Shown: piece by piece, positions 1 to 10,387 of the stretch
Layout of the letters: every line of letters starts with the position of its first letter
How positions within the stretch are numbered: position 1 is the first letter of the stretch
Source of the DNA: Azolla caroliniana
Taxonomy: Eukaryota; Plantae; Polypodiophyta
Length of the DNA: 10,387 bases
NCBI GenBank assembly: GCA_043228905.1
Contig: JBHGNT010001278.1
Location: 1 to 10,387, forward strand
Reading direction: 5' to 3'
The notes under the pieces: model-generated
Seen by the model: the letters and a program-made list of their open reading frames with translations, nothing else
Database searches by the model: none
Told to the model about the DNA's origin: nothing
Translations under genes and position numbers: made by a program

Positions 1-516
1 AACCATTTTTCCTTCCGGCCTGGCGTTGCCCAAAGTGACAACCAACGTCTCCCAGCTATCCGGGAGGGAACCGAGCAGGAGTAGAGCTAGTACCTCATCG
101 GCGAGAGGTACTTCCAATGATGTTGCCTGGTGGATCAACCCCTGGAAGGCATTCATGTGCTCCGCCATGCTGGATCCATCTTGGTACCGGAGTCTTACTA
201 GCTTCCGGAAAACCGAAACCTGATTAACAACATTTTTGTTCTGAAACATAATGTCGATCTTCTCCCAGAGCTCATGAGCCTTGCTCTCTTCATTGAAGTT
301 GTTGTATAGGCTCATGTCGACGAAGCACCGTATGTAAGCCGTTGTCTTCATGTGCATCACCTCCCATATCGTGGCGTCGATTTTGTCCAGTCTCTTGTCC
401 CCAAACTGAACTGGTAACCAAAGATCTTTAACCACGAGCATGTCCCTCATCTTCGACTTCCATACTGAATAGTTGGAGCCGGTGAGCTTGAACATGCCTC
501 CCAACGAATTGTCCAT
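1..516 (-). CDS. gag: Copia Gag(-Pol) N-terminus, Tnt1/Tto1 (Tork)-like, running off the window edge
   Basis: Manual translation from ATG at 516 gives 172 codons with no stop: MDNSLGGMFKLTGSNYSVWKSKMRDMLVVKDLW...AHELWEKID...SMAEHMNAFQGLI...DEVLALLLLGSLPDSWETLVVTL. These are typical copia gag motifs (NY..W..M, LL.SLP.SW). It is absent from the ORF track because it has no stop in the window. Confidence 0.92.
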   Translation of the reverse strand, partial: MDNSLGGMFKLTGSNYSVWKSKMRDMLVVKDLWLPVQFGDKRLDKIDATIWEVMHMKTTAYIRCFVDMSLYNNFNEESKAHELWEKIDIMFQNKNVVNQVSVFRKLVRLRYQDGSSMAEHMNAFQGLIHQATSLEVPLADEVLALLLLGSLPDSWETLVVTLGNARPEGKMV

Positions 517-531
517 TTTATGTGTCGTTTT

Positions 532-543
532 GCTCTGATACCA
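532..543 (-). promoter_or_regulatory. Primer binding site complementary to tRNA-iMet
   Basis: Plus-strand gctctgatacca is TGGTATCAGAGC on the minus strand, 2 nt from the LTR end and 15 nt before the gag ATG. Confidence 0.95.
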
Positions 544-821
544 CTTGACGAGAACTACACGTCCCGTATGCGTAACGCTCGGCCACAACCGAGCTTAGAA
601 TCATACACAAAAACAGGAAAAAATAAGACACACGACACAAAGGAGAGAAGAGTACACAAGATGTTTAACGTGGAAAACCATGAGAGGGAAAAACCACGGG
701 AGTCCACAGACTCCAAACTATCACTATGTTACAGTGTACAACAGTAAAGCACCGAGGCAACGACCTCGAGCTTTCTATCTCCGCCACAAGCGGCGGTTAC
801 AACAGAGGCAACGAACTCTTC

Positions 822-841
822 CTCTCTCTCTCTCTCTCTCT
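822..841. repeat. (CT)10 microsatellite within LTR A
   Basis: Direct read: ctctctctctctctctctct. Confidence 0.9.
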
Positions 842-916
842 ATACACAGTTACGCGCTCTGATCTCGCGCAAACAAGAATGACAACACACTCTAAACAAA
901 AGTTTGCCCTAAGTCA

Positions 917-924
917 TATTTATA
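917..924 (-). promoter_or_regulatory. Putative TATA box of LTR A
   Basis: TATAAATA on the minus strand, downstream of the U3 tandem repeats and oriented toward the PBS and gag. Confidence 0.6.
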
Positions 925-1015
925 CTAATATGACTTTTCGGCTATTTACAAATATAGCCACGATGGACTCTTAAAAACATATTTACGAATATGTCTCTTC
1001 ATCCGGTGAGCACTC

Positions 1016-1176
1016 CTCACCGGGTCTGCACCATCTGGCTCTCTGTAGCCGGGTACTCCTCATCCGGTTCTCACCGGGTTTGCACCATCCGGCTCTCCGT
1101 AGCCGGGTACTCCTCATCCGGTTCTCACCGGTCTGCACCATCTGGCTCTCCGTAGCTGGGTACTCCTCATCCGGTT
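1016..1176. repeat. Three tandem copies of a 54-bp unit in U3 of LTR A
   Basis: The unit ctcaccgggtctgcaccatctggctctcygtagccgggtactcctcatccggtt occurs at 1016-1069, 1070-1123 and 1124-1176 (53 bp). Confidence 0.93.
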
Positions 1177-1224
1177 TCGGCCGAGGCCAATACCTCCCCA
1201 TCCGGAGGGACCTGTCTCCCAACA

Positions 1225-1687
1225 CTTGTCCGACCCGAGCGGCTTGGTGAAGATGTCGGAAACCTGCCGATCCGTGTGAACATACCGAAGTTCAACTTCA
1301 CCGCTCAGGACCCGCTCACGAACAAAGTGATAATGCACTTCTATGTGCTTTGTCCGATCATGGAACACTGGGTTCTTGGCGAGTTGTATCTTGCTCATGT
1401 TGTCACAGTGGATCGGGATCGGGGTTGGCACCTCGATCCGAAGGTCACGCAACAGTCGCCGAAGCCAAATGGCTTCCTAGGTGGCAATGGTAGCACCCTG
1501 GTATTCGGCCTTAGTGCTCGACAGAGCCACTTTTGGCTGCGTTTTGTTGCTCCATGCAACAACCGCGCTACCAAGAGAAAACATGTAACCGGAGGTGGAT
1601 CGGCGATCTGATGCATCACCAACCCAATCGGCATCTGTGTATCTGACTGGCTCTTCAGTTATACCATTCCGGTATAACTGTCCCCGG
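1225..1687 (-). pseudogene. pol: Copia B RNase H
   Basis: YTDADWVGDASDRRSTSGYMF..VAWSNKTQPKVALSSTKAEY, an internal TAG near 1477, then HCDN..AKNPVFHDRTKHIEVHYHFVRE..QVSDIFTKPL. Confidence 0.93.
1684..1687. repeat. Left copy of the 4-bp target site duplication CCGG of element C (right copy 5209-5212)
   Basis: ccgg|TGTCG...GCGACA|ccgg. Removing C plus one CCGG restores the host frame RYVSVTKD-R-GQLYRNG. Confidence 0.9.
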
Positions 1688-1813
1688 TGTCGTGACGATT
1701 TTCGGCTACGGTGTGAAACCGAGTGAGACGAATAAACCAAGGATGTGCAACATTGCACATACACTTAGCAAATAAGCCTCTTAAGGCCTAGTGGCACTTG
1801 AGTTCATACAGAG

Positions 1814-1885
1814 GGGTGCAAGCAAGGTTTGAACCTTGCACCTCTAAGATACAAGATAATTGCCTTACCACTAGGACAACTATCA
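1814..1885 (-). other. tRNA-like sequence (degenerate, Pol III A and B boxes) inside the 5' LTR of C
   Basis: Minus strand: TGATAGT TG TCCT AGTGGTA AGGC A ATTAT CTTGTAT CTTAG AGGTG CAAGG TTCAAAC CTTGC... The A box TGTCCTAGTGG and B box GGTTCAAACC are at canonical tRNA spacing. The acceptor and anticodon stems do not pair. Confidence 0.6.
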
Positions 1886-1945
1886 TATAGTGTAGATGTT
1901 ATGTATTTCCTTTTCATATACAAATTATAGACGAAACAACCATAG

Positions 1946-2057
1946 AAAACCATGTGCACAAAACCATGGTTTTAAACCCATGGTTTGTGCATGACATAAG
2001 CAAAACCGTGTGCACAAAACCATGGTTTTAGCCCATGGTTTTGTGCATGTCACGAGC
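1946..2057. repeat. Two tandem 56-bp palindromic units in U3 of LTR C (also 4818-4929)
   Basis: aaaaccRtgtgcacaaaaccatggtttta..ccatggttt(t)gtgcatg occurs at 1946 and 2002. Unit 2 has a perfect 15-bp stem (2011-2025 with 2033-2047). Confidence 0.9.
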
Positions 2058-2068
2058 ATGGAAAGACC

Positions 2069-2075
2069 TATAAAA
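2069..2075 (+). promoter_or_regulatory. Putative TATA box of LTR C (also 4941-4947)
   Basis: cTATAAAAg immediately after the U3 palindromic repeats and oriented toward the PBS and ORF. Confidence 0.65.
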
Positions 2076-2341
2076 GCCTCTAGTTGGGCTTGTGTAAGGG
2101 GGGCTCAATATGTGATATCACCAACACCATTATCATCAATATAATTATATTTGTCTTTATCTTCTCCATATTTTTCTACTTCTCAAGTGTACAATCTTTC
2201 TTCTTCTCGAGTAAACCAATTTCATCTAATCTTACATTGATCGTCATCTAGCTTCGATAATTCCGCGAACGTCCTCCCCAGTCCAAGACCCCGGTGGTCG
2301 CTCGAGTAGCACACGCACGCGCGAATCTTCGCGACATCATT

Positions 2342-2359
2342 TGGTGAACCCGACGTGAA
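2342..2359 (+). promoter_or_regulatory. Primer binding site complementary to tRNA-Trp
   Basis: TGGTGAACCCGACGTGAA lies 5 nt after the LTR. It is the reverse complement of the plant cytosolic tRNA-Trp 3' end (..TTCACGTCGGGTTCACCA, as recalled). Confidence 0.88.
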
Positions 2360-2380
2360 GAGCAGCAGGGGAGGACGAAG

Positions 2381-4483
2381 ATGGATGGCGAATATCTCAT
2401 GGAGGCAATGTCAAGAAGGATGATGGAGTTTCTTAGAGAAGGGAAAAGAAGAAATGAAGCCCAACAAGCCGTCGACAAGGTAGTCGAACGAATGAGCTAT
2501 TTCAACGGTGCCGAAGTCCAAAGTTTCCTAAAAGTCTACAATGCGGAGATGGATTCAAGAGGTGTGGACAAAGCTATGAGGCTAGAGTACTTTTGTCGGG
2601 TGGTGTCTCAACCGATCTTCAAAGATGTAACAGAGCTTCTAGAAGCTCATGATTCGTGGGCGACTTTCGAGAAGGCTCTATTGGAGGAATATGACTATGA
2701 GAGACTAAAGGGACAAGATCGACGCAACTTCGACCAATGGGTGACATCAGCGAAGACCCACCAAGGTGCGACACAAGCATTCGTAGACTTCGAGCATCAT
2801 TTTTCTCAATTGTCGGAGCGGGAACAAAGATTGGTGGGGGTCGATAAGGTCCTTATGTTCGTGAAGTCAATCGATCGAATGGAAAGGATGGCGATCGGCC
2901 TCAAACTCGAAGAAGATGATGGTGCAAATGGCCTCATCGAGGATTGGAGCAAAGTGGTAAGTGTATGCCGACTACACGATAAGGGGCAAGCGAGAATATC
3001 GATGACAACAAGACGGCCCATGAGGGACGATCGAAGAGGGACGAGATGCAACAATGCACCACCAACAAAAGAAATGAAGCTTAGAAGGGAGACAAAACCG
3101 AGGCGAATGGTGATCGAGGAAGAAGAGACCTCCCAACAAATGCGGGTTAATGAAGTGGCCGATACAAAGGCTCTAGTTCGGTATGACAGTACCGAGAGAG
3201 AAGGTGTGAAACAAGTCACCTTCTTGTCTTACAAAGAAACGACGGCGAAGGAGGAGGCCGATGACTCGAGGACGGCGAACGCCACTTCGAGGGAGGATAA
3301 ATGTTTCGGAACACGCATTGTGTACGAAACATCGGGTGATGACGGCGCAAGCATGAGAAAAGCTTGCATGATCGAGGGAGAAAAAGTGTTTGAGTCTGAA
3401 GAGATTGAGGAGGTAGCCATGACAAACGACATCGAGTCGGAGGTGGCTATGGATGAGTCGACGACGGATAGCCATGTCGACACTTTCTTCACGCTTGTTC
3501 CAGAGACTTCGGCGGTTGCGCCCATGTGCCAACGTGAGACCGGAGAGACGGAAGGTGGTGACGGGAAGACGAAGGCCCAACACAAGGAGGAAGAAGATCG
3601 AGGAAGAAAGGATATCCCCACACCTATTCTAGAGACTTCGGCGGTTGTGCACGTGCACCAACGTGAGACCGGAGAGACAGAATGTGTGGACAAAAAAGAG
3701 GACGACCGGAAGGGCGATGAAGAAGACAAGGTAAATGTAAATGAACGAAGGGATTCCTTCACACTGGTTCCGGAGACTTCGGCAGTCGAGACCGTGTGTC
3801 GACATAAGACCGAAGATAAAGGAGGTGGCGAAGAGGAGACAATATGGCTCGAGGCGAGCATACACGGAGGGAAGGATATGGCCGACGTGGAGGCCAAGGA
3901 TGAAGCTGCTGTTGAGTTCGATGGAGAGGTTGCATGCGGGAAGGAAGGAAGAGTCGAGAACCGGTTGAACCGGAAGACGATCCGGCCGGGATTCCGACCC
4001 GAACGAAGGAAGATCCACATGGGAGCCGATCGACCGGGGCCGACCCGGCCGAAACCTGATTCGGCGAAAATCGATCGAACGATTCCGATCCAAAAGGGGG
4101 CTGACCCAGCCAGAATCAATCGGTCGAGCCCGGCCCGGGGAAATGTGAATGCAGACGAAGGCCAACCAAGCCAAGAAGCGATCGGTGGAGACCGATCCGG
4201 ACAAGGGCAAACCCGGCCTAATCGGAGATCGACACGAACGATCTACAATACCCAGTTGAAGACGGTGAGAGTGAGGAGTGACCAGGAGTCCAATCGAAGG
4301 ACACGCGCGGTGGACGAACGAAGAGCGGTCGTATCGACGACATCGTTCGGTAGATCTACTACAACCGATCGGGGAAGAAGGTGTGAGCGCCGGATATGGT
4401 GGATCAGGTGGCTACGGTGGTTCGGTTGGAAAGATTGCGCATACTCGAAGTGGAAGACGAAGTCAGACGAGGAACTCGGTTGA
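2381..4483 (+). CDS. 700-aa Gag-like protein: N-terminal capsid-like helical region, then acidic repeats and an Arg/Pro-rich, Trp-rich tail
   Basis: Uninterrupted ORF starting 21 nt after the PBS and ending shortly before the PPT. The N-terminus (FNGAEVQSFLKVYN..RLEYF..SWATFEKALLEEY) resembles gypsy Gag. No CCHC knuckle is present. Confidence 0.82.
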   Translation: MDGEYLMEAMSRRMMEFLREGKRRNEAQQAVDKVVERMSYFNGAEVQSFLKVYNAEMDSRGVDKAMRLEYFCRVVSQPIFKDVTELLEAHDSWATFEKALLEEYDYERLKGQDRRNFDQWVTSAKTHQGATQAFVDFEHHFSQLSEREQRLVGVDKVLMFVKSIDRMERMAIGLKLEEDDGANGLIEDWSKVVSVCRLHDKGQARISMTTRRPMRDDRRGTRCNNAPPTKEMKLRRETKPRRMVIEEEETSQQMRVNEVADTKALVRYDSTEREGVKQVTFLSYKETTAKEEADDSRTANATSREDKCFGTRIVYETSGDDGASMRKACMIEGEKVFESEEIEEVAMTNDIESEVAMDESTTDSHVDTFFTLVPETSAVAPMCQRETGETEGGDGKTKAQHKEEEDRGRKDIPTPILETSAVVHVHQRETGETECVDKKEDDRKGDEEDKVNVNERRDSFTLVPETSAVETVCRHKTEDKGGGEEETIWLEASIHGGKDMADVEAKDEAAVEFDGEVACGKEGRVENRLNRKTIRPGFRPERRKIHMGADRPGPTRPKPDSAKIDRTIPIQKGADPARINRSSPARGNVNADEGQPSQEAIGGDRSGQGQTRPNRRSTRTIYNTQLKTVRVRSDQESNRRTRAVDERRAVVSTTSFGRSTTTDRGRRCERRIWWIRWLRWFGWKDCAYSKWKTKSDEELG
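3485..3830 (+). repeat. Three diverged in-frame repeats within the ORF of C
   Basis: gagacttcggc anchors at 3503, 3632 and 3773 (spacing 129 and 141 bp). Peptides: FTLVPETSAVAPMCQRETGETE, TPILETSAVVHVHQRETGETE, FTLVPETSAVETVCRHKTED. Confidence 0.85.
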
Positions 4484-4547
4484 TCACCGTTGCCAAAGAT
4501 CTCACCTCTTCACCTTTTTCGGCACATACCGGAGGATGTGCGGGTTT

Positions 4548-4559
4548 GGTGGGGGTGGA
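4548..4559 (+). promoter_or_regulatory. Polypurine tract of element C
   Basis: GGTGGGGGTGGA directly before the TG of the 3' LTR. Confidence 0.85.
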
Positions 4560-5208
4560 TGTCGTGACGATTTTCGGCTACGGTGTGAAACCGAGTGAGA
4601 CGAATAAACCAAGGATGTGCAACATTGCACATACACTTAGCAAATAAGCCTCTTAAGGCCTAGTGGCACTTGAGTTCATACAGAGGGGTGCAAGCAAGGT
4701 TTGAACCTTGCACCTCTAAGATACAAGATAATTGCCTTACCACTAGGACAACTATCATATAGTGTAGATGTTATGTATTTCCTTTTCATATACAAATTAT
4801 AGACGAAACAACCATAGAAAACCATGTGCACAAAACCATGGTTTTAAACCCATGGTTTGTGCATGACATAAGCAAAACCGTGTGCACAAAACCATGGTTT
4901 TAGCCCATGGTTTTGTGCATGTCACGAGCATGGAAAGACCTATAAAAGCCTCTAGTTGGGCTTGTGTAAGGGGGGCTCAATATGTGATATCACCAACACC
5001 ATTATCATCAATATAATTATATTTGTCTTTATCTTCTCCATATTTTTCTACTTCTCAAGTGTACAATCTTTCTTCTTCTCGAGTAAACCAATTTCATCTA
5101 ATCTTACATTGATCGTCATCTAGCTTCGATAATTCCGCGAACGTCCTCCCCAGTCCAAGACCCCGGTGGTCGCTCGAGTAGCACACGCACGCGCGAATCT
5201 TCGCGACA
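4560..5208 (+). repeat. 3' LTR of element C (649 bp)
   Basis: No differences from 1688-2336 were found by eye. Confidence 0.97.
4686..4757 (-). other. tRNA-like sequence, second copy, in the 3' LTR of C
   Basis: Same sequence as 1814-1885, offset by 2872 bp. Confidence 0.6.
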
Positions 5209-6230
5209 CCGGTCCTTCGTGACGCTCACATACCGCAATATTCGATGAGCGCATTGAAGGTGCTCCACGGTTGGCTTCTACATGACCTGGCCGATCACTC
5301 CAACTGGATAACTGATGTCGGGTCTGGTGATTGTCAAGTAGATAAGGCTTCTGACAATTGCCGGAACCGTTTCTCATCGCAGGCCAATCCGGAGTTGGGA
5401 CATAGCTTCAGGTTCCGGTCCAGGGGTGTGGAGATTGGTCGGCATTCAGTCATGCCGAACTTGTACAACTTATTCAGCACATAGTGTCTTTGTGAGAGCA
5501 ATAGGCCATCGGGGGTCCGGATCACTTGATCCCAAGAAAATAATGAAGGTCCCCCAGGTCCTTCATTTCAAATGCATCTGACATCTCGGACTTCACTTGG
5601 CCGATTTCAACGAGCTTGGGTCCAGTGATGACTAAATCATCTACATAAAGCAAAATGCAAATCGAATTGTTCCAGATGAACAATGAAGAGTCAGACTTTG
5701 AGGCCGCAAACCCTATCTTACGCAGCCGGTGGGTGATCTTCGCATTCCAAGCTCGAGGGGCTTGCTTCAGACTGTAAAGTGACTTTTTGAGTCGGCACAC
5801 TGCCGACTTGTTCATCTCCGATTGGAAACCCAGGGGTTGGATCATATAGACCCGTTCGTCAAGGTCACCTTGAAGAAACACATTCTTCACGTCCATTTGG
5901 TGAAGATGCCATCCCCTTTGCGTAGCAACCGCCAGTACCACATGAACTGTCGTCATCTTCGTTACCGGAGCGAAGGTCTCGTCGTAGTTGATTCCGTGGG
6001 TGGTCTGTGGGTATCCCTTCGCCACTAACCGGGCCTTGTACTGGTTGATCGAACCATCGACGTTTAACTTTACTTTGTACACCCATTTGCAACTGATCGG
6101 TTTGCACTGTTGGGGAGGGTAAACCAGGTTCCATGTATCGTTGGCATCTAGTGCTCGCATTTCTTCCTCCATAGCAACACGCCAATTTGCGTCCTCTACT
6201 GCTTCTGCGTAGCTCTCCGGCTCACGCACT
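5209..6230 (-). pseudogene. pol: Copia B reverse transcriptase (frameshifted)
   Basis: EPESYAEA..W..AMEEEM, CKWVYKVK, YKARLVAKGY, HQMDVKNVFLQGDL, LKKSLYSLKQAPRAW, LLYVDDL (YVDD at 5636-5647), DLGDLHYFLGI. Frameshifts near 5525 and 5360. Confidence 0.95.
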
Positions 6231-6719
6231 TCCGCCACCTTAGTCATGTATGCATAGTGATGCGCCATGTACTCATTGTATCCGTACCTCTGAACGGGGT
6301 TCTTCTGGCGGATTGAGCGGCGTAACTTTCGGTTAGCCGGTTTGAGGCCCTTCTTGGCCGGTTCAGACTTCCTTTCTAAAGATCCGCCTTCTTCCTTTCT
6401 GGGGTCAGATCCGCTTCGATCCGACCCTTCACTGCTAGTATCGTATTCCGACATCTTCTTCTTCCCTTTCTCTTTGCGCATGAACCGTCTCCGCAGTTCC
6501 TTGCGCGGGGAGAGCACGACAGAGTCTTCACTACTCGTCGGTTCTTCATCCGACTGGTCATCCTGACTCAGCCGCTCATTCGATCCACTTAGCCAGAATG
6601 AGATCGGGCTCTCTTCTAGATTGCCAAAGTCTTCATCTTCTTCCTGAACCCCCTCGGGCTCACTAGCCTCATCTTCTGGAATCGGGTGTTCGTCGGGAGT
6701 TGGAGTCGGTAGGGTGTAC

Positions 6720-7700
6720 CATGATGCCGACTCATCAAACTCGACATCTCGACATACTCGTACCTGTTTAGTCCGGGGGTTATAACACTTATACCCCTTT
6801 TGTTCATGTGAGTAACCGGCTAGGATGCACTTCTCCGACTTCGGATCTAGCTTCTTCCGCTTCTCATCCGGTACATGCACATATGCAATGCTACCGAATA
6901 TCTGAAGGTGCCTCAAATTTGGCTTCCGTCGGAAATACAACTCATGTGTTGATAACTTGTCTCCGATCTAGTTTTGGATGTAGATGGTCATCTGAACCGC
7001 CTCAGCCCAGTAGAATTGGGGCAAGCTCTTCTCCTTCAGCATTGTCGTTGCCACATCGACAATCGACCGGTTCTTCCTTTCGGCCACACCGTTTTGCTCC
7101 GGTGTGTATCTGCAGCTAAATTCTCTCCGAATTCCGTTATGTTGCAGATAACTGTTGAATTGGCCAGAGTGCCCCCCTTTCTCGTCGTCACGTAAGCCGT
7201 CTCGAAGAAGTCCACACCAACTTGTCCTCTGAGACCATGTTGTCCTCATCATCAAACCTCGCTCTCGAAAGCATGTCGGCCATGGCATTGTCCTTCCCGC
7301 CATCCGACCACAAGCATTTGATCTTCCTCTCTGTTTCCCTTTCGACTAAACTTTGAAGGTTCCAGAAAGAGTCGAAGACTTCACTTTTCTTCTCGATGAG
7401 GTAGATCCACGTGTGCCGGCTATAGTCGTCGATGAAGGAGACGAAATACCGACTCTCGCCAAGACTAACGTTTTTTGTGTTGGTCGCCATACATCCGAAT
7501 GGATTAAATCGAGCTTGTTACGGCTCCGGTTTTGTTTGGTGGGGAATGGAAGCCAATGTTGCTTCCCAAGTTGGCAGGTTTCACATATTTGGACCTTTCG
7601 GGCACTAAAGTTCGGCAATCCGAACACAACTTGTTTCGATTGCAGATCTTGAAGCCTCCGGTAGTTGACGTGGCCGATCCGCTTATGCCAGAGATCGATG
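6720..7700 (-). pseudogene. pol: Copia B integrase (frameshifted, interrupted by filler DNA)
   Basis: LWHKRIGH..CETCQLGKQH (HHCC), LIHSDVW, FIDDYSRHTWIY, SDGG, TPEQNGVAERKNRSI, WAEAV, FGSIAYVHVPDEKRKKLDPKSEKCI. Confidence 0.93.
7170..7290 (-). other. 121-bp gypsy RNase H C-terminal fragment inserted into the copia B integrase
   Basis: After the copia ..KCLWSDGGK the sequence reads KDNAMADMLSRARFDDED (gypsy RH motif GK.N..AD.LSR). The copia sequence resumes at SGQFNSYL. Confidence 0.8.
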
Positions 7701-7779
7701 TCCAATTCAATCTTTGTCCCTTTGGCAAACATGGCGGTGCCGACGTCATTAGTGTTGAGGATGAACATCCTCCCTTCTC

Positions 7780-8090
7780 GGCGCCCTTGCGCAATTATCC
7801 GGCCTTCTTCCTCGATGAAGCACCCGAGGTGCGTAAACCGCATGTTCCGACTATCACAAAGAACCTGGTATTGGTTGGAAAAATCGTCGACCAGGGGATG
7901 CAATACATTCATAAGCTTTCCCTTTTGTCCAACATGGCTTAAAGGAACTTCTCCGACATGCACAATTGGGTGAGGGGTGTCGTCTCCGGTTTCGACAATC
8001 CTCGGTTGTTCTGGTTTCTCCAAAAAAGAGAAACACTCTTCATGGCTTGTCATGTGGTTGGACACTCTAGAATCAACGTACCATATTTCC
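7780..8090 (-). pseudogene. pol: Copia B aspartic protease region
   Basis: IWYVDSRVSNHMT, where the canonical DSGA..HMT is altered to DSR at 8066-8074. It contains a micro-inversion at 7844-7897. Confidence 0.85.
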
Positions 8091-8189
8091 TCCGATTTGG
8101 AATTAGTCTTCTTCATCGAGTTATCCTTGTGCTTCATCACGAAGGCTAGCCCTTTACCAGTCTTCCTGGTTCCGGATCCTTCCAATCCT

Positions 8190-8594
8190 TCTGCATAGTG
8201 CGAGCTTTGTCGGTTCCCTTGTCCGGCCTTGTTGGATCCAGATTTATCCGAGTCGGCACGCTTCTTCCAGCACTCGCTCTCTCTGTGGCCTTTCTTGCCA
8301 CAATACCAACATTCCGTGTCGGTTTTCGACTGCCAGTTTCCGGCTCCGACTTGACTCCCCCTGCTTATGGAAGGTCCGGAACTGTTGTCGACACTGTCTC
8401 TGTGCCCTCAGTACTGCTCTTGCCGGACACCCCCATTGTGTGCCGACCCTCCTCGTCCTCCATGCCCACGGGGTCGATCAGACTCCGTGTACAACATCCA
8501 GCTGTCAAATTGAGTGGTCCTCGACCCACTCGCGTGGTTTTCTTCGACCATCAACATTGATTGTAAGTCGAAGAAGGATGGTGGCTTCTCCCGC
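8190..8594 (-). pseudogene. gag: Copia B gag C-terminal part with CCHC zinc knuckle
   Basis: REKPPSFFDLQSMLMVEENH, a Gly/Arg-rich stretch, and CWYCGKKGHRESEC at 8311-8270. Truncated at 8594 by element D. Confidence 0.88.
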
Positions 8595-9242
8595 TGTCGT
8601 GTTATTCTGCACGTGCCGGAGAAACCAAGGCGGGACCGCGAGGCCCTGAACCGGGGAATAGCCGAACAGAGGGAGGAGAGACGCGAAACCACGGCCGAGC
8701 CGCGCACACAAATACACCGAGAACTCACAACGAAGATTGAACAACGAGTAAGGAAAATATATATTTATGATCAAGGTTATAGCTATCTCACCGGTAAGCG
8801 TCAACACAGTGACACCAACTCACACAACGCACACGGACAACACGAGATGGAGCCTCTGCTGGAAGCACTCGGGCTTTCCACAAAGCAGAGGCAACCTCCC
8901 AAACCTTGCAGAGAACGATGAAAGACAGAGGAGAAGAGCTCGGTCCCAATTCGACAACACTTCGTCCTACACAACGCGCTTCCCTACTCAGCCCCCTTTC
9001 CTCTCCCTTTATAGCCCAAGGGGAGAGAGACGTTACAGTCTATTCCGTCACTTTTATTCTCTGTCCTTTTGTATAGAGATCCTCCTCGATTCCCTACCTA
9101 ATGCACACACGCTACCTAGGATACCCACATCGCCGACCTATACCTAAATATGTACGATACATCAAAACATGTGCCCGTGTGTAAGGACCGGTTCACGCAC
9201 ACTATTCACCGATTCCTCCTAGGGAGGGTTTTCTCCACCACA
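8595..9242 (-). repeat. 3' LTR of gypsy D (about 648 bp)
   Basis: The minus strand starts TGTGGTG right after the PPT and ends CACGACA (6/7 terminal inverted repeat) where the copia gag resumes. A TATAAA lies at 9013-9008. The partner LTR is outside the window. Confidence 0.82.
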
Positions 9243-9660: not shown

Positions 9661-10387
9661 CCGCACAGGTGTTAGATGACCATGATTTCCGACTGTCCGA
9701 AAGCCGATTTCTCCCCGAAGAAGGTGAGCCACGCGCCTTCCAGCTTCTGTAGCACCTTCTCACAGTCTCCGATGTGGTCTGAGACGAATTTCTGACACAG
9801 GTCTGATTTGACCGTTTCGTCCTTATCCTCCACCAGACATCCCTTGATCGGAATGTCATCCAAAAACGGCATGGTGATGTCTGGGATGCAGTCCCGTAGC
9901 ACCTTATTCATCACATTCACCATCTGTGCTACCGAGTTTGTCCCCCCTTGCAGAAGGGCACACATCTGCACTAGGCCGAAAGGAGTCTGCATTGTCGTAA
10001 TATCCATGCTCTCCACGGCTAGTTGGAATTGGTCGTACCCCAAGTACAGATCCCCGACCGAGTAAATCGACCTTCTGGCGAAGGCCTCCGCGAACTTGTC
10101 AATGGCCGGTCCGATTCCTGTGTTCCGAATGGTCACCTTGTTGACCGGCTGCAGGTCCTGAATAAAGCGCCACATGTCGTTCTTCTTTGGCACGGTAAAC
10201 CACCGATTCGAGTACGGGGCACTCGACAGTTCGAGGATGCCCATCTCCACCTTCTGTTTCAACATCTCCATCAACTTTGGGAGGTGAGCTCTAGGTACTA
10301 GAATCGGTTTGAGATTCCACGGCACATGTGGTACCGTGAAGATAACCATCGGCTCAATGACCATCGGGTCTACGCACCTGATCTCTT
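9661..10387 (-). pseudogene. pol: Gypsy reverse transcriptase (C-terminally truncated)
   Basis: SSAPYSNRWFTVPKKN..RFIQDLQPVNKVT, DLYLGYDQFQL, TPFGL..LLQGGTNS, PFLDDIPI (FLDD at 9855-9866), EKSAFG. A TAA at 9672-9674 is followed by a deletion junction. Confidence 0.92.

What the first reader, a model, noticed from the sequence alone, without database searches (positions are those of the whole stretch)
1814..1885. tRNA-shaped Pol III promoter module built into both LTRs of a young non-autonomous retroelement
On the antisense strand of U3, the sequence follows tRNA geometry position by position. It has an A box (TGTCCTAGTGG) at 8-18, a 3-bp D stem, CTTGTAT where the anticodon loop falls (TGT = Thr), an AGGTG variable loop, and a B box GGTTCAAACC inside a GCAAGG/CCTTGC hairpin. 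The acceptor and anticodon stems do not pair, so it is not a functional tRNA. Established: Cassandra TRIMs carry 5S rRNA with its Pol III promoter in their LTRs, and SINEs have tRNA-derived heads. Inference: this may be a tRNA analogue of Cassandra, using TFIIIC/Pol III for an antisense RNA or as a chromatin barrier next to the Pol II promoter. A SINE head captured in the LTR is the alternative.
Basis: partly seen in the sequence, partly recalled or inferred. Interest (0 to 1): 0.78.

Follow-up and report, generated by a model that had tools for sequence, protein, structure and literature searches.

The report
Backward tRNA promoter in retrotransposon ends
The end repeats of a young, capsid-only jumping gene, likely from a non-seed land plant, carry a worn tRNA-gene promoter that faces backwards and keeps its two control boxes across related repeats; it cannot make the element's own RNA as in known tRNA-bearing mini-elements, and likely acts as a protein-binding boundary beside the element's ordinary promoter.

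Summary
Observation confirmed. 1878-1823 (-) is a tRNA-derived A+B-box module: 12 of 12 tRNA invariants, 22.2 bits against at most 17.3 in 300 LTR shuffles, RF00005 13.8 bits (weak). It does not fold as a tRNA; 'Thr' is unsupported because that loop varies in all 10 relatives. It lies in U3 of identical 649-bp LTRs of a 3.5-kb gag-only Phygy-like element (4-bp NCGN target duplication). Ten distinct LTRs of two otherwise unalignable classes carry it antisense at fixed box spacing. Boxes are better kept than the spacer but not clearly better than the downstream flank, and several sister LTR classes lack it. The 'tRNA Cassandra' is already published (Helenus, 2024), but this is not one: those are short, non-coding and sense-oriented in the entries I viewed; this one codes Gag, keeps a TATA box and points away from the template. 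Best reading (0.4): a captured SINE/tRNA head kept as a TFIIIC site acting on LTR chromatin; rivals are a neutral relic (0.3) or an antisense RNA (0.18). No binding or transcript data. The scan has noted tRNA-like LTR modules, one antisense, in other genomes.

The parts
1814..1885 (-). tRNA-derived module in U3 of the 5' LTR (tRNA positions 1-72 by register)
1868..1878 (-). A box
1825..1835 (-). B box, near-palindromic, in the best-conserved stretch of U3
4686..4757 (-). identical module in the 3' LTR
1688..2336 (+). 5' LTR, 649 bp, TG...CA
4560..5208 (+). 3' LTR, 100% identical to the 5' LTR
1946..2058 (.). two 56-bp palindromic repeats between module and TATA box (enhancer role inferred)
2069..2075 (+). 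TATA-like box of the presumed Pol II promoter, conserved in class A LTRs
2342..2359 (+). primer-binding site; tRNA-Trp type by recall, the dominant Phygy type
2381..4483 (+). single 700-aa ORF: N-terminal Gag capsid-like domain plus long charged tail; no pol
4548..4559 (+). polypurine tract
1684..1687 (.). 4-bp target site duplication, left copy (NCGN type), in a copia pol on the - strand
5209..5212 (.). 4-bp target site duplication, right copy

Best explanation
The stretch is a tRNA-derived internal promoter (A box and B box) lying backwards in the U3 part of both LTRs, likely captured from a SINE or tRNA gene, likely kept by selection on the DNA boxes, and most likely working as a TFIIIC-binding boundary that acts on the LTR's own chromatin rather than as a source of the element's RNA. 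Shown: tRNA geometry, antisense orientation, loss of the cloverleaf, position about 190 bp upstream of a retained TATA box, and recurrence with fixed spacing in 10 distinct LTRs of two classes. Inferred from established Pol III biology: TFIIIC binds the B box and places TFIIIB on the AT-rich DNA on the TATA-facing side. Inferred and untested: this complex holds a nucleosome-poor border that limits silencing or read-through spreading in from the flank (the lineage inserts at CG-centred sites, here inside another retrotransposon), so the Pol II promoter of new copies stays usable. Odds by step: tRNA-derived 0.9; kept by selection about 0.6; chromatin role rather than RNA product about 0.4 overall.
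For: Signal above shuffles. Ten distinct modules, all antisense, in 7 class A and 3 class B LTRs; gap-free from tRNA position 1 to 64, with invariant columns mostly in the A-box 3' half, variable loop and B box. Box columns 0.72 vs flank plus anticodon arm 0.52 mean identity; between classes 0.59 vs 0.36. Class A and B LTRs share no BLAST match longer than 24 nt, yet L044 has near-perfect boxes (31.3 bits). 0 of 46 gap blocks fall in the 64-nt module of the class A alignment. In contigs of three DNA runs, 0 of 21 sites at 1824-1844 vary at 15% or more against 7 of 19 in the spacer; the two variable A-box sites remain consensus-compatible. No tRNA-like RNA structure is kept and covariation is not above control, pointing to DNA motifs. 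TATA is retained. TFIIIC/tDNA barrier, insulator and roadblock effects are documented in yeasts (PMC4228148, PMC7990762; passages).
Against: No binding, chromatin or transcript data. Boxes are not significantly better kept than flanks in the run data (2 of 36 vs 12 of 100, p=0.35), and the 60 bp downstream are nearly as conserved as the A box (0.77 vs 0.81). 3 of 10 modules have lost the B-box C, which in yeast cripples TFIIIC binding. Sister LTR classes (L034/L016, L041, L014, L019/L024, L046, probably L030) have no such module, so it is dispensable for the lineage. RF00005 did not report the modules of L044 or L007a. In the 3' LTR the complex would stand head-on in the path of the element's own Pol II transcript, a cost. 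Barrier data come from yeasts, not plants. Loci are metagenome contigs of collapsed repeats and may be chimeric.
Confidence: 0.4

Rival explanations
1. Neutral passenger: SINE or tRNA heads fell into U3 of ancestral LTRs, were copied to both ends by replication, and are decaying; the apparent conservation reflects recent capture and module swapping.
For: Patchy presence on the Gag tree: class F nests among class A yet lacks the module; L014 is sister to L044 and lacks it (quick tree, careful search unfinished). A related head lies in the opposite, sense orientation in the L037 LTR. Box vs flank difference is not significant in run data. Kojima notes that 'not a few' Repbase LTRs hold tRNA-like pieces.
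Against: Same strand and similar place in two LTR classes that do not otherwise align; spacer diverged while boxes and spacing held, the pattern reported for functional Cassandra promoters (PMC10853983 passages). No donor SINE outside LTRs among 163 kb scanned, though that DNA is element-centred.
Confidence: 0.3
2. The module is a working Pol III gene whose product matters: an antisense RNA of about 90-130 nt complementary to U3 at the 3' end of the genomic RNA, tuning silencing or packaging.
For: 9 of 10 modules have a T4 run downstream inside the LTR; all 3 class B modules at the same +33, giving 87 nt. AT-rich, TATA-like DNA lies about 25-35 nt upstream in class A, as for plant tRNA genes (PMC11700998 passages).
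Against: The window copy, the youngest, has no T4 on that strand within the LTR (next at 1581 and 4095); predicted lengths run from 87 to 228 nt; these LTRs are AT-rich so T4 runs are expected; no conserved RNA fold.
Confidence: 0.18
3. The selected feature is the hairpin round the B box (as DNA palindrome or as RNA in the 3' U3 of the genomic transcript), and the tRNA look is only its ancestry.
For: 1822-1843 is the best-conserved U3 stretch (0.88) and forms an 8-11 bp stem on either strand in window and L007a (z -1.6 to -3.1).
Against: Pairing 71.9% vs 69.3% in shuffles, 35 of 500 reach it; 2 pairs with compensatory change vs 1.0 expected; class B folds are not better than shuffles; the A box and its spacing are kept too.
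Confidence: 0.07
4. Helenus/Cassandra mode: Pol III started in the 5' LTR makes the template for reverse transcription.
For: A weaker mirror A+B pair exists on the + strand at 1784-1836 (15.6 bits) because the B box is near-palindromic.
Against: The conserved module is antisense; the mirror A box is lost in L005, L007b, L010a and L049; the + strand B box lacks the invariant C; a T4 run follows at 1911; the element is 3.5 kb, needs a translatable Gag mRNA and keeps TATA.
Confidence: 0.03

Closest known systems
Helenus / TRIMp3 (Kojima 2024, PMC10886601; whole main text read, supplement part 5 of 11 and one further passage)
   Same: Non-autonomous LTR element with a tRNA-derived, non-functional sequence in both LTRs, boxes A and B conserved, SINE-into-LTR origin proposed, function not yet shown by experiment.
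   Different: Helenus is 311-1263 bp and non-coding; the tRNA part is sense-oriented in the LTR entries I viewed (by eye); the only plant family (Selaginella) has 120-bp LTRs and a 5-bp TSD. This element is 3521 bp, codes Gag, has 649-bp LTRs with a TATA box, a 4-bp TSD and an antisense module.
Cassandra TRIMs (PMC10853983 passages; PMC10886601)
   Same: Pol III boxes in the LTR, conserved with fixed spacing while the sequence between them varies.
   Different: 5S-derived type 1 promoter that replaces the Pol II promoter and makes the element's RNA; here tRNA-type, antisense, beside a retained TATA box.
Phygy lineage of Ty3/gypsy non-chromoviruses (Neumann 2019, PMC6317226; passages and one supplement row)
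   Same: 4-bp NCGN target duplication, Trp-type primer site (tRNA identity recalled), Gag relatives with DUF4100.
   Different: Phygy elements are autonomous, 7.7-10 kb; this family has Gag only. No autonomous partner with this LTR was found, and lineage was not tested by RT phylogeny.
TR-GAG elements (as summarised in PMC13570524, passages)
   Same: Non-autonomous LTR elements retaining a Gag ORF without enzymes.
   Different: No Pol III module is mentioned for them in the passages read.
tDNA and extra-TFIIIC (ETC) boundary sites of yeasts (PMC4228148, PMC7990762; passages)
   Same: A/B-box DNA acting without a useful RNA product, next to a Pol II promoter: the proposed mode of action.
   Different: Those are fixed host loci shown by experiment; this is carried by a mobile element and untested.

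Membership tests
Helenus (TRIMp3) | tRNA-derived sequence with boxes A and B in the LTRs | tested here: met
Helenus (TRIMp3) | TRIM size (under about 1-1.3 kb) | tested here: not met
   3521 bp vs 311-1263 bp
Helenus (TRIMp3) | no protein coding | tested here: not met
   700-aa ORF with capsid-like fold
Helenus (TRIMp3) | Pol III promoter placed to produce the template RNA (sense) | tested here: not met
   antisense in 10 of 10 class A and B modules; sense in the Helenus entries viewed
Helenus (TRIMp3) | two LTRs, PBS, PPT, TSD | tested here: met
   TSD 4 bp, not the 5 bp of plant Helenus
Cassandra | 5S rRNA-derived core in the LTR | tested here: not met
   no 5S match in Rfam scans
functional tRNA gene | cloverleaf with acceptor and anticodon stems | tested here: not met
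   acceptor 1-2 of 7 pairs in all 10 modules, anticodon 2 of 5 in the window; ARAGORN negative
tRNA-derived SINE | dispersed copies outside LTRs with body, tail and own TSD | tested here: inconclusive
   none among 163 kb of element-centred DNA; 0-3% of laid DNA contigs run on into unlike sequence, but contigs are short and no genome is held
Phygy-like gypsy lineage | 4-bp NCGN TSD | tested here: met
   3 of 3 insertions with both flanks; table row
Phygy-like gypsy lineage | tRNA-Trp primer site | tested here: inconclusive
   same site in 23 places of the related loci; identity with plant tRNA-Trp is recalled, not from a call
Phygy-like gypsy lineage | RT/RH/INT phylogeny | not testable with these tools
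   the element has no pol; the window's gypsy RT did not match any of 58 loci
TR-GAG | intact Gag ORF between LTRs, no pol domains | tested here: met
   (fold match weak: E 0.058, probability 0.98)
TFIIIC boundary element | TFIIIC occupancy and barrier or insulator activity | not testable with these tools
   needs ChIP and reporter assays

The most novel reading that the evidence does not exclude
Gag-only Phygy-like retrotransposons have repeatedly recruited tRNA/SINE heads into U3 as a portable TFIIIC/Pol III chromatin boundary: a mobile element carrying its own tDNA-type insulator, facing away from its Pol II promoter, to stay transcribable after inserting into CG sites of silenced repeats. 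That would be a use of LTR-borne Pol III promoters distinct from Cassandra and Helenus, and would scatter large numbers of TFIIIC sites through a plant genome.
Probability: 0.22. Interest if true: 0.75.

Novelty: new variant of a known kind. Interest (0 to 1): 0.45.

Why it matters
tRNA-like sequence in LTRs is known, but so far explained as the promoter that makes a tiny element's RNA. Here orientation, size, a Gag ORF and a retained TATA box rule that out, yet the boxes persist across divergent LTRs. If TFIIIC binds them, it gives a direct test of whether tDNA-type barriers work in plants and whether a retrotransposon can carry an anti-silencing boundary; natural module-bearing and module-less sister LTRs supply the control. 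If not, it is a SINE relic and mainly a caution for tRNA annotation.

Tried and rejected
No whole genome is held, so copies could not be aligned genome-wide. Thr identity rejected: the loop differs in all 10 modules and position 1852 varies in the runs. Parent tRNA not identified: only prokaryotic tRNAs and one host tRNA-Met were at hand. Conserved RNA structure not supported. Bidirectional promoter rejected: mirror A box not conserved. Insertion hotspot upstream of the module (lead from e1-10420559): no insertion in the 45 nt upstream of 10 of 10 modules. Viral contigs gave nothing for Gag or module; six primer-site hits there were unrelated phage DNA, one with a 19.6-bit chance A+B score. 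Species genomes: 0 hits for the primer site, six 20-24 nt chance hits for the module. No RNA holder listed; run X23 (RNA is a guess) had 4 contigs with module variants, not used as evidence. A reading-frame test of TSD length was uninformative and dropped; TSD length rests on the flanks. First fold was poor (pLDDT 49.7); PDB sequence search empty; Pfam empty for the ORF. Sigma-70 scan irrelevant. Gag tree is the quick version only. Literature searches listed no report of an antisense tRNA-type module in a Gag-coding plant LTR element; the library lacks most subscription papers and Repbase was not searchable.

Full report
The element. Window 1688-5208 is an LTR element with 649-bp LTRs (1688-2336, 4560-5208) that are 100% identical, begin TG and end CA. 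A 4-bp duplication of NCGN type flanks it, and it sits in the pol region of a copia element on the - strand. Inside are a primer site, one 700-aa ORF (2381-4483) and a polypurine tract. The ORF has no Pfam match; some distant relatives carry DUF4100, a gag-type protease or Retrotrans_gag (6 of 18 scanned, mostly near or below cut-off). A confident model of its first 220 residues (pLDDT 92.7) ranks Arc/dArc capsids first (probability 0.98 but E 0.058). Relatives holding both ends likewise show one long ORF followed by PPT and LTR. So it is a young Gag-only element. A 4-bp NCGN duplication and a Trp primer site are the marks of the Phygy lineage (PMC6317226 passages and supplement row); the Trp identity of this site is recalled. 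The gypsy RT at the window's right end has its nearest named relatives in the liverwort Riccia at 63-68%, so a non-seed land plant host is inferred.

The observation. RF00005 positions 8-63 align to 1878-1823 (-) at 13.8 bits, E=2 over 4227 families on 141 nt, gathering score 29; the whole-window scan and ARAGORN miss it. Single boxes are at chance level in the window. A joint A+B matrix with tRNA spacing, trained on 37 of 47 phage and cyanobacterial tRNAs, gives 22.2 bits, above all 300 LTR shuffles (max 17.3), and 12 of 12 recalled tRNA invariants are present. The cloverleaf fails: acceptor 2 of 7, anticodon 2 of 5, D 3 of 4, T 3 of 5 in the 7-nt-loop register.

Relatives. A Gag-based scan returned 58 metagenome loci. 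Scanning them and the window (163,052 bases) gave 27 sites at 14 bits or more against 4-13 in five shuffled sets; the 14 sites above 18.5 bits (cut chosen after seeing scores) are 13 LTR modules and one real tRNA-Met. A 19.6-bit chance site in unrelated phage DNA shows the matrix has false positives. Counting identical copies once (L008, L009 and the second L010 copy equal L007a) and adding L042, found by BLAST, there are 10 distinct modules: 7 in class A LTRs like the window's and 3 in class B LTRs (L044, L040, L042). All 10 are antisense, with position 8 about 160-280 nt into the LTR, and align without gaps from tRNA position 1 to 64. Class A and B LTRs share no BLAST match over 24 nt. A class B profile finds all seven class A modules (8.3-13.4 bits, best real tRNA 7.9), but the class A profile scores L044 (8.9) below two real tRNAs; pairwise A-B scores average 7.8 against 3.0 for tRNAs, one of 41 tRNAs reaching 9.9. 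Common origin of A and B is therefore likely but not shown. The L037 LTR has a degenerate B-like head in sense orientation (15.9 bits, 7 of 300 shuffles). LTRs of L034/L016, L041 (part), L014, L019/L024 and L046 have no module, and L030 only a doubtful one (6 of 300). On the quick Gag tree presence is patchy. RF00005 did not report the L044 or L007a modules.

Conservation. Across the 10 modules box columns average 0.72 identity against 0.52 for flanks plus anticodon arm (p=0.001, optimistic because columns and sequences are related). In whole class A LTRs the T-arm and variable loop (0.88) and B box (0.86) rank with the TATA region (0.87) and U5 end (0.83); A box 0.81, anticodon arm 0.73, upstream U3 0.49, but the 60 bp downstream 0.77. 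None of 46 gap blocks falls in 1822-1885 (p about 0.008 if uniform). In contigs of three DNA runs from three organism codes, sites varying at 15% or more were 0 of 21 at 1824-1844, 2 of 15 at 1864-1878, 7 of 19 in the spacer and 12 of 100 in flanks (two flank sites taken); boxes vs spacer p=0.005, boxes vs flanks p=0.35, borders drawn after looking, 1814-1823 (1 of 10) left out. The anticodon loop differs in all 10 modules. The B-box C is lost in 3 of 10. Covariation of the B-box hairpin is not above control (35 of 500 shuffles) and RNAalifold finds only a weak stem. So DNA boxes and spacing are kept, RNA structure is not, and the evidence for selection is moderate.

Mechanism. The module points away from the TATA box at 2069-2075, about 190 bp off, with palindromic repeats between. 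Antisense Pol III transcription cannot yield the template. [quoted passage not shown] I commit to a boundary role on the LTR's own chromatin (0.4). An antisense RNA product is possible (T4 runs in 9 of 10, fixed in class B) but the youngest copy lacks a terminator in the LTR. A neutral relic remains strong (0.3): patchy distribution, a sense-oriented sister head, no functional data.

Comparison. The tRNA counterpart of Cassandra is published: Helenus (PMC10886601; whole main text; supplement part 5 of 11 and one passage). It is short, non-coding, sense-oriented in the entries viewed by eye, and proposed to make the template. The paper adds that not a few Repbase LTRs contain tRNA-like pieces but studied only TRIMs. 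Cassandra replaces its Pol II promoter (PMC10853983 passages). This element fails three Helenus features and fits TR-GAG (PMC13570524 passages). Unseen supplement parts could hold antisense Helenus cases. My searches listed no description of an antisense tRNA-type module in a Gag-coding plant LTR; other papers were seen as listings only. The scan's earlier notes have no look-alike sequence but record tRNA-like LTR modules in other genomes, one antisense in a gypsy element (unchecked).

Verdict. Real feature, new variant of a known kind, function untested. Interest 0.45; if the portable-boundary reading holds (0.22), 0.75.

Noticed in passing
L016:33-2040: Tandem array of about 303-bp units each with a tRNA-Met(CAT) gene or relic; a solo LTR (33-735, 4-bp TSD) and a second LTR (1342-2040) of a module-less relative sit at the same site just 3' of the tRNA gene in two units. 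Site preference or tRNA-gene targeting; assembly artefact not excluded.
   Followed up: partly
L014:403-1158: LTR sharing its 3' half with class B but with a tandem-repeat U3 holding two antisense B-box-like sites and no A box.
   Followed up: partly
L037:1629-1692: Sense-oriented degenerate tRNA-like head in another LTR class, closer to class B modules than to any of 41 tRNAs.
   Followed up: yes
window 1784-1836 (+): Weaker mirror A+B pair on the + strand sharing the near-palindromic B box; A box not conserved in relatives.
   Followed up: yes
window 1946-2058 and 4818-4930: Two 56-bp palindromic repeats with RY-like motifs (name recalled) between module and TATA box; class B LTRs have similar motifs at the same place.
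   Followed up: partly
L007:1-5560: LTR-gag-LTR-gag-LTR tandem of different subfamilies; true tandem array or collapsed assembly.
   Followed up: no
L001:1370-1462: Decayed module in a shortened LTR remnant upstream of an intact Gag.
   Followed up: partly
window 9672-10385 (-): Gypsy reverse transcriptase fragment, nearest named relatives in Riccia; possible member of the helper lineage, link not shown.
   Followed up: partly
window 1-1687 and 5209-8760: Nested broken copia elements on the - strand, with three 54-bp tandem repeats at 1016-1176.
   Followed up: no
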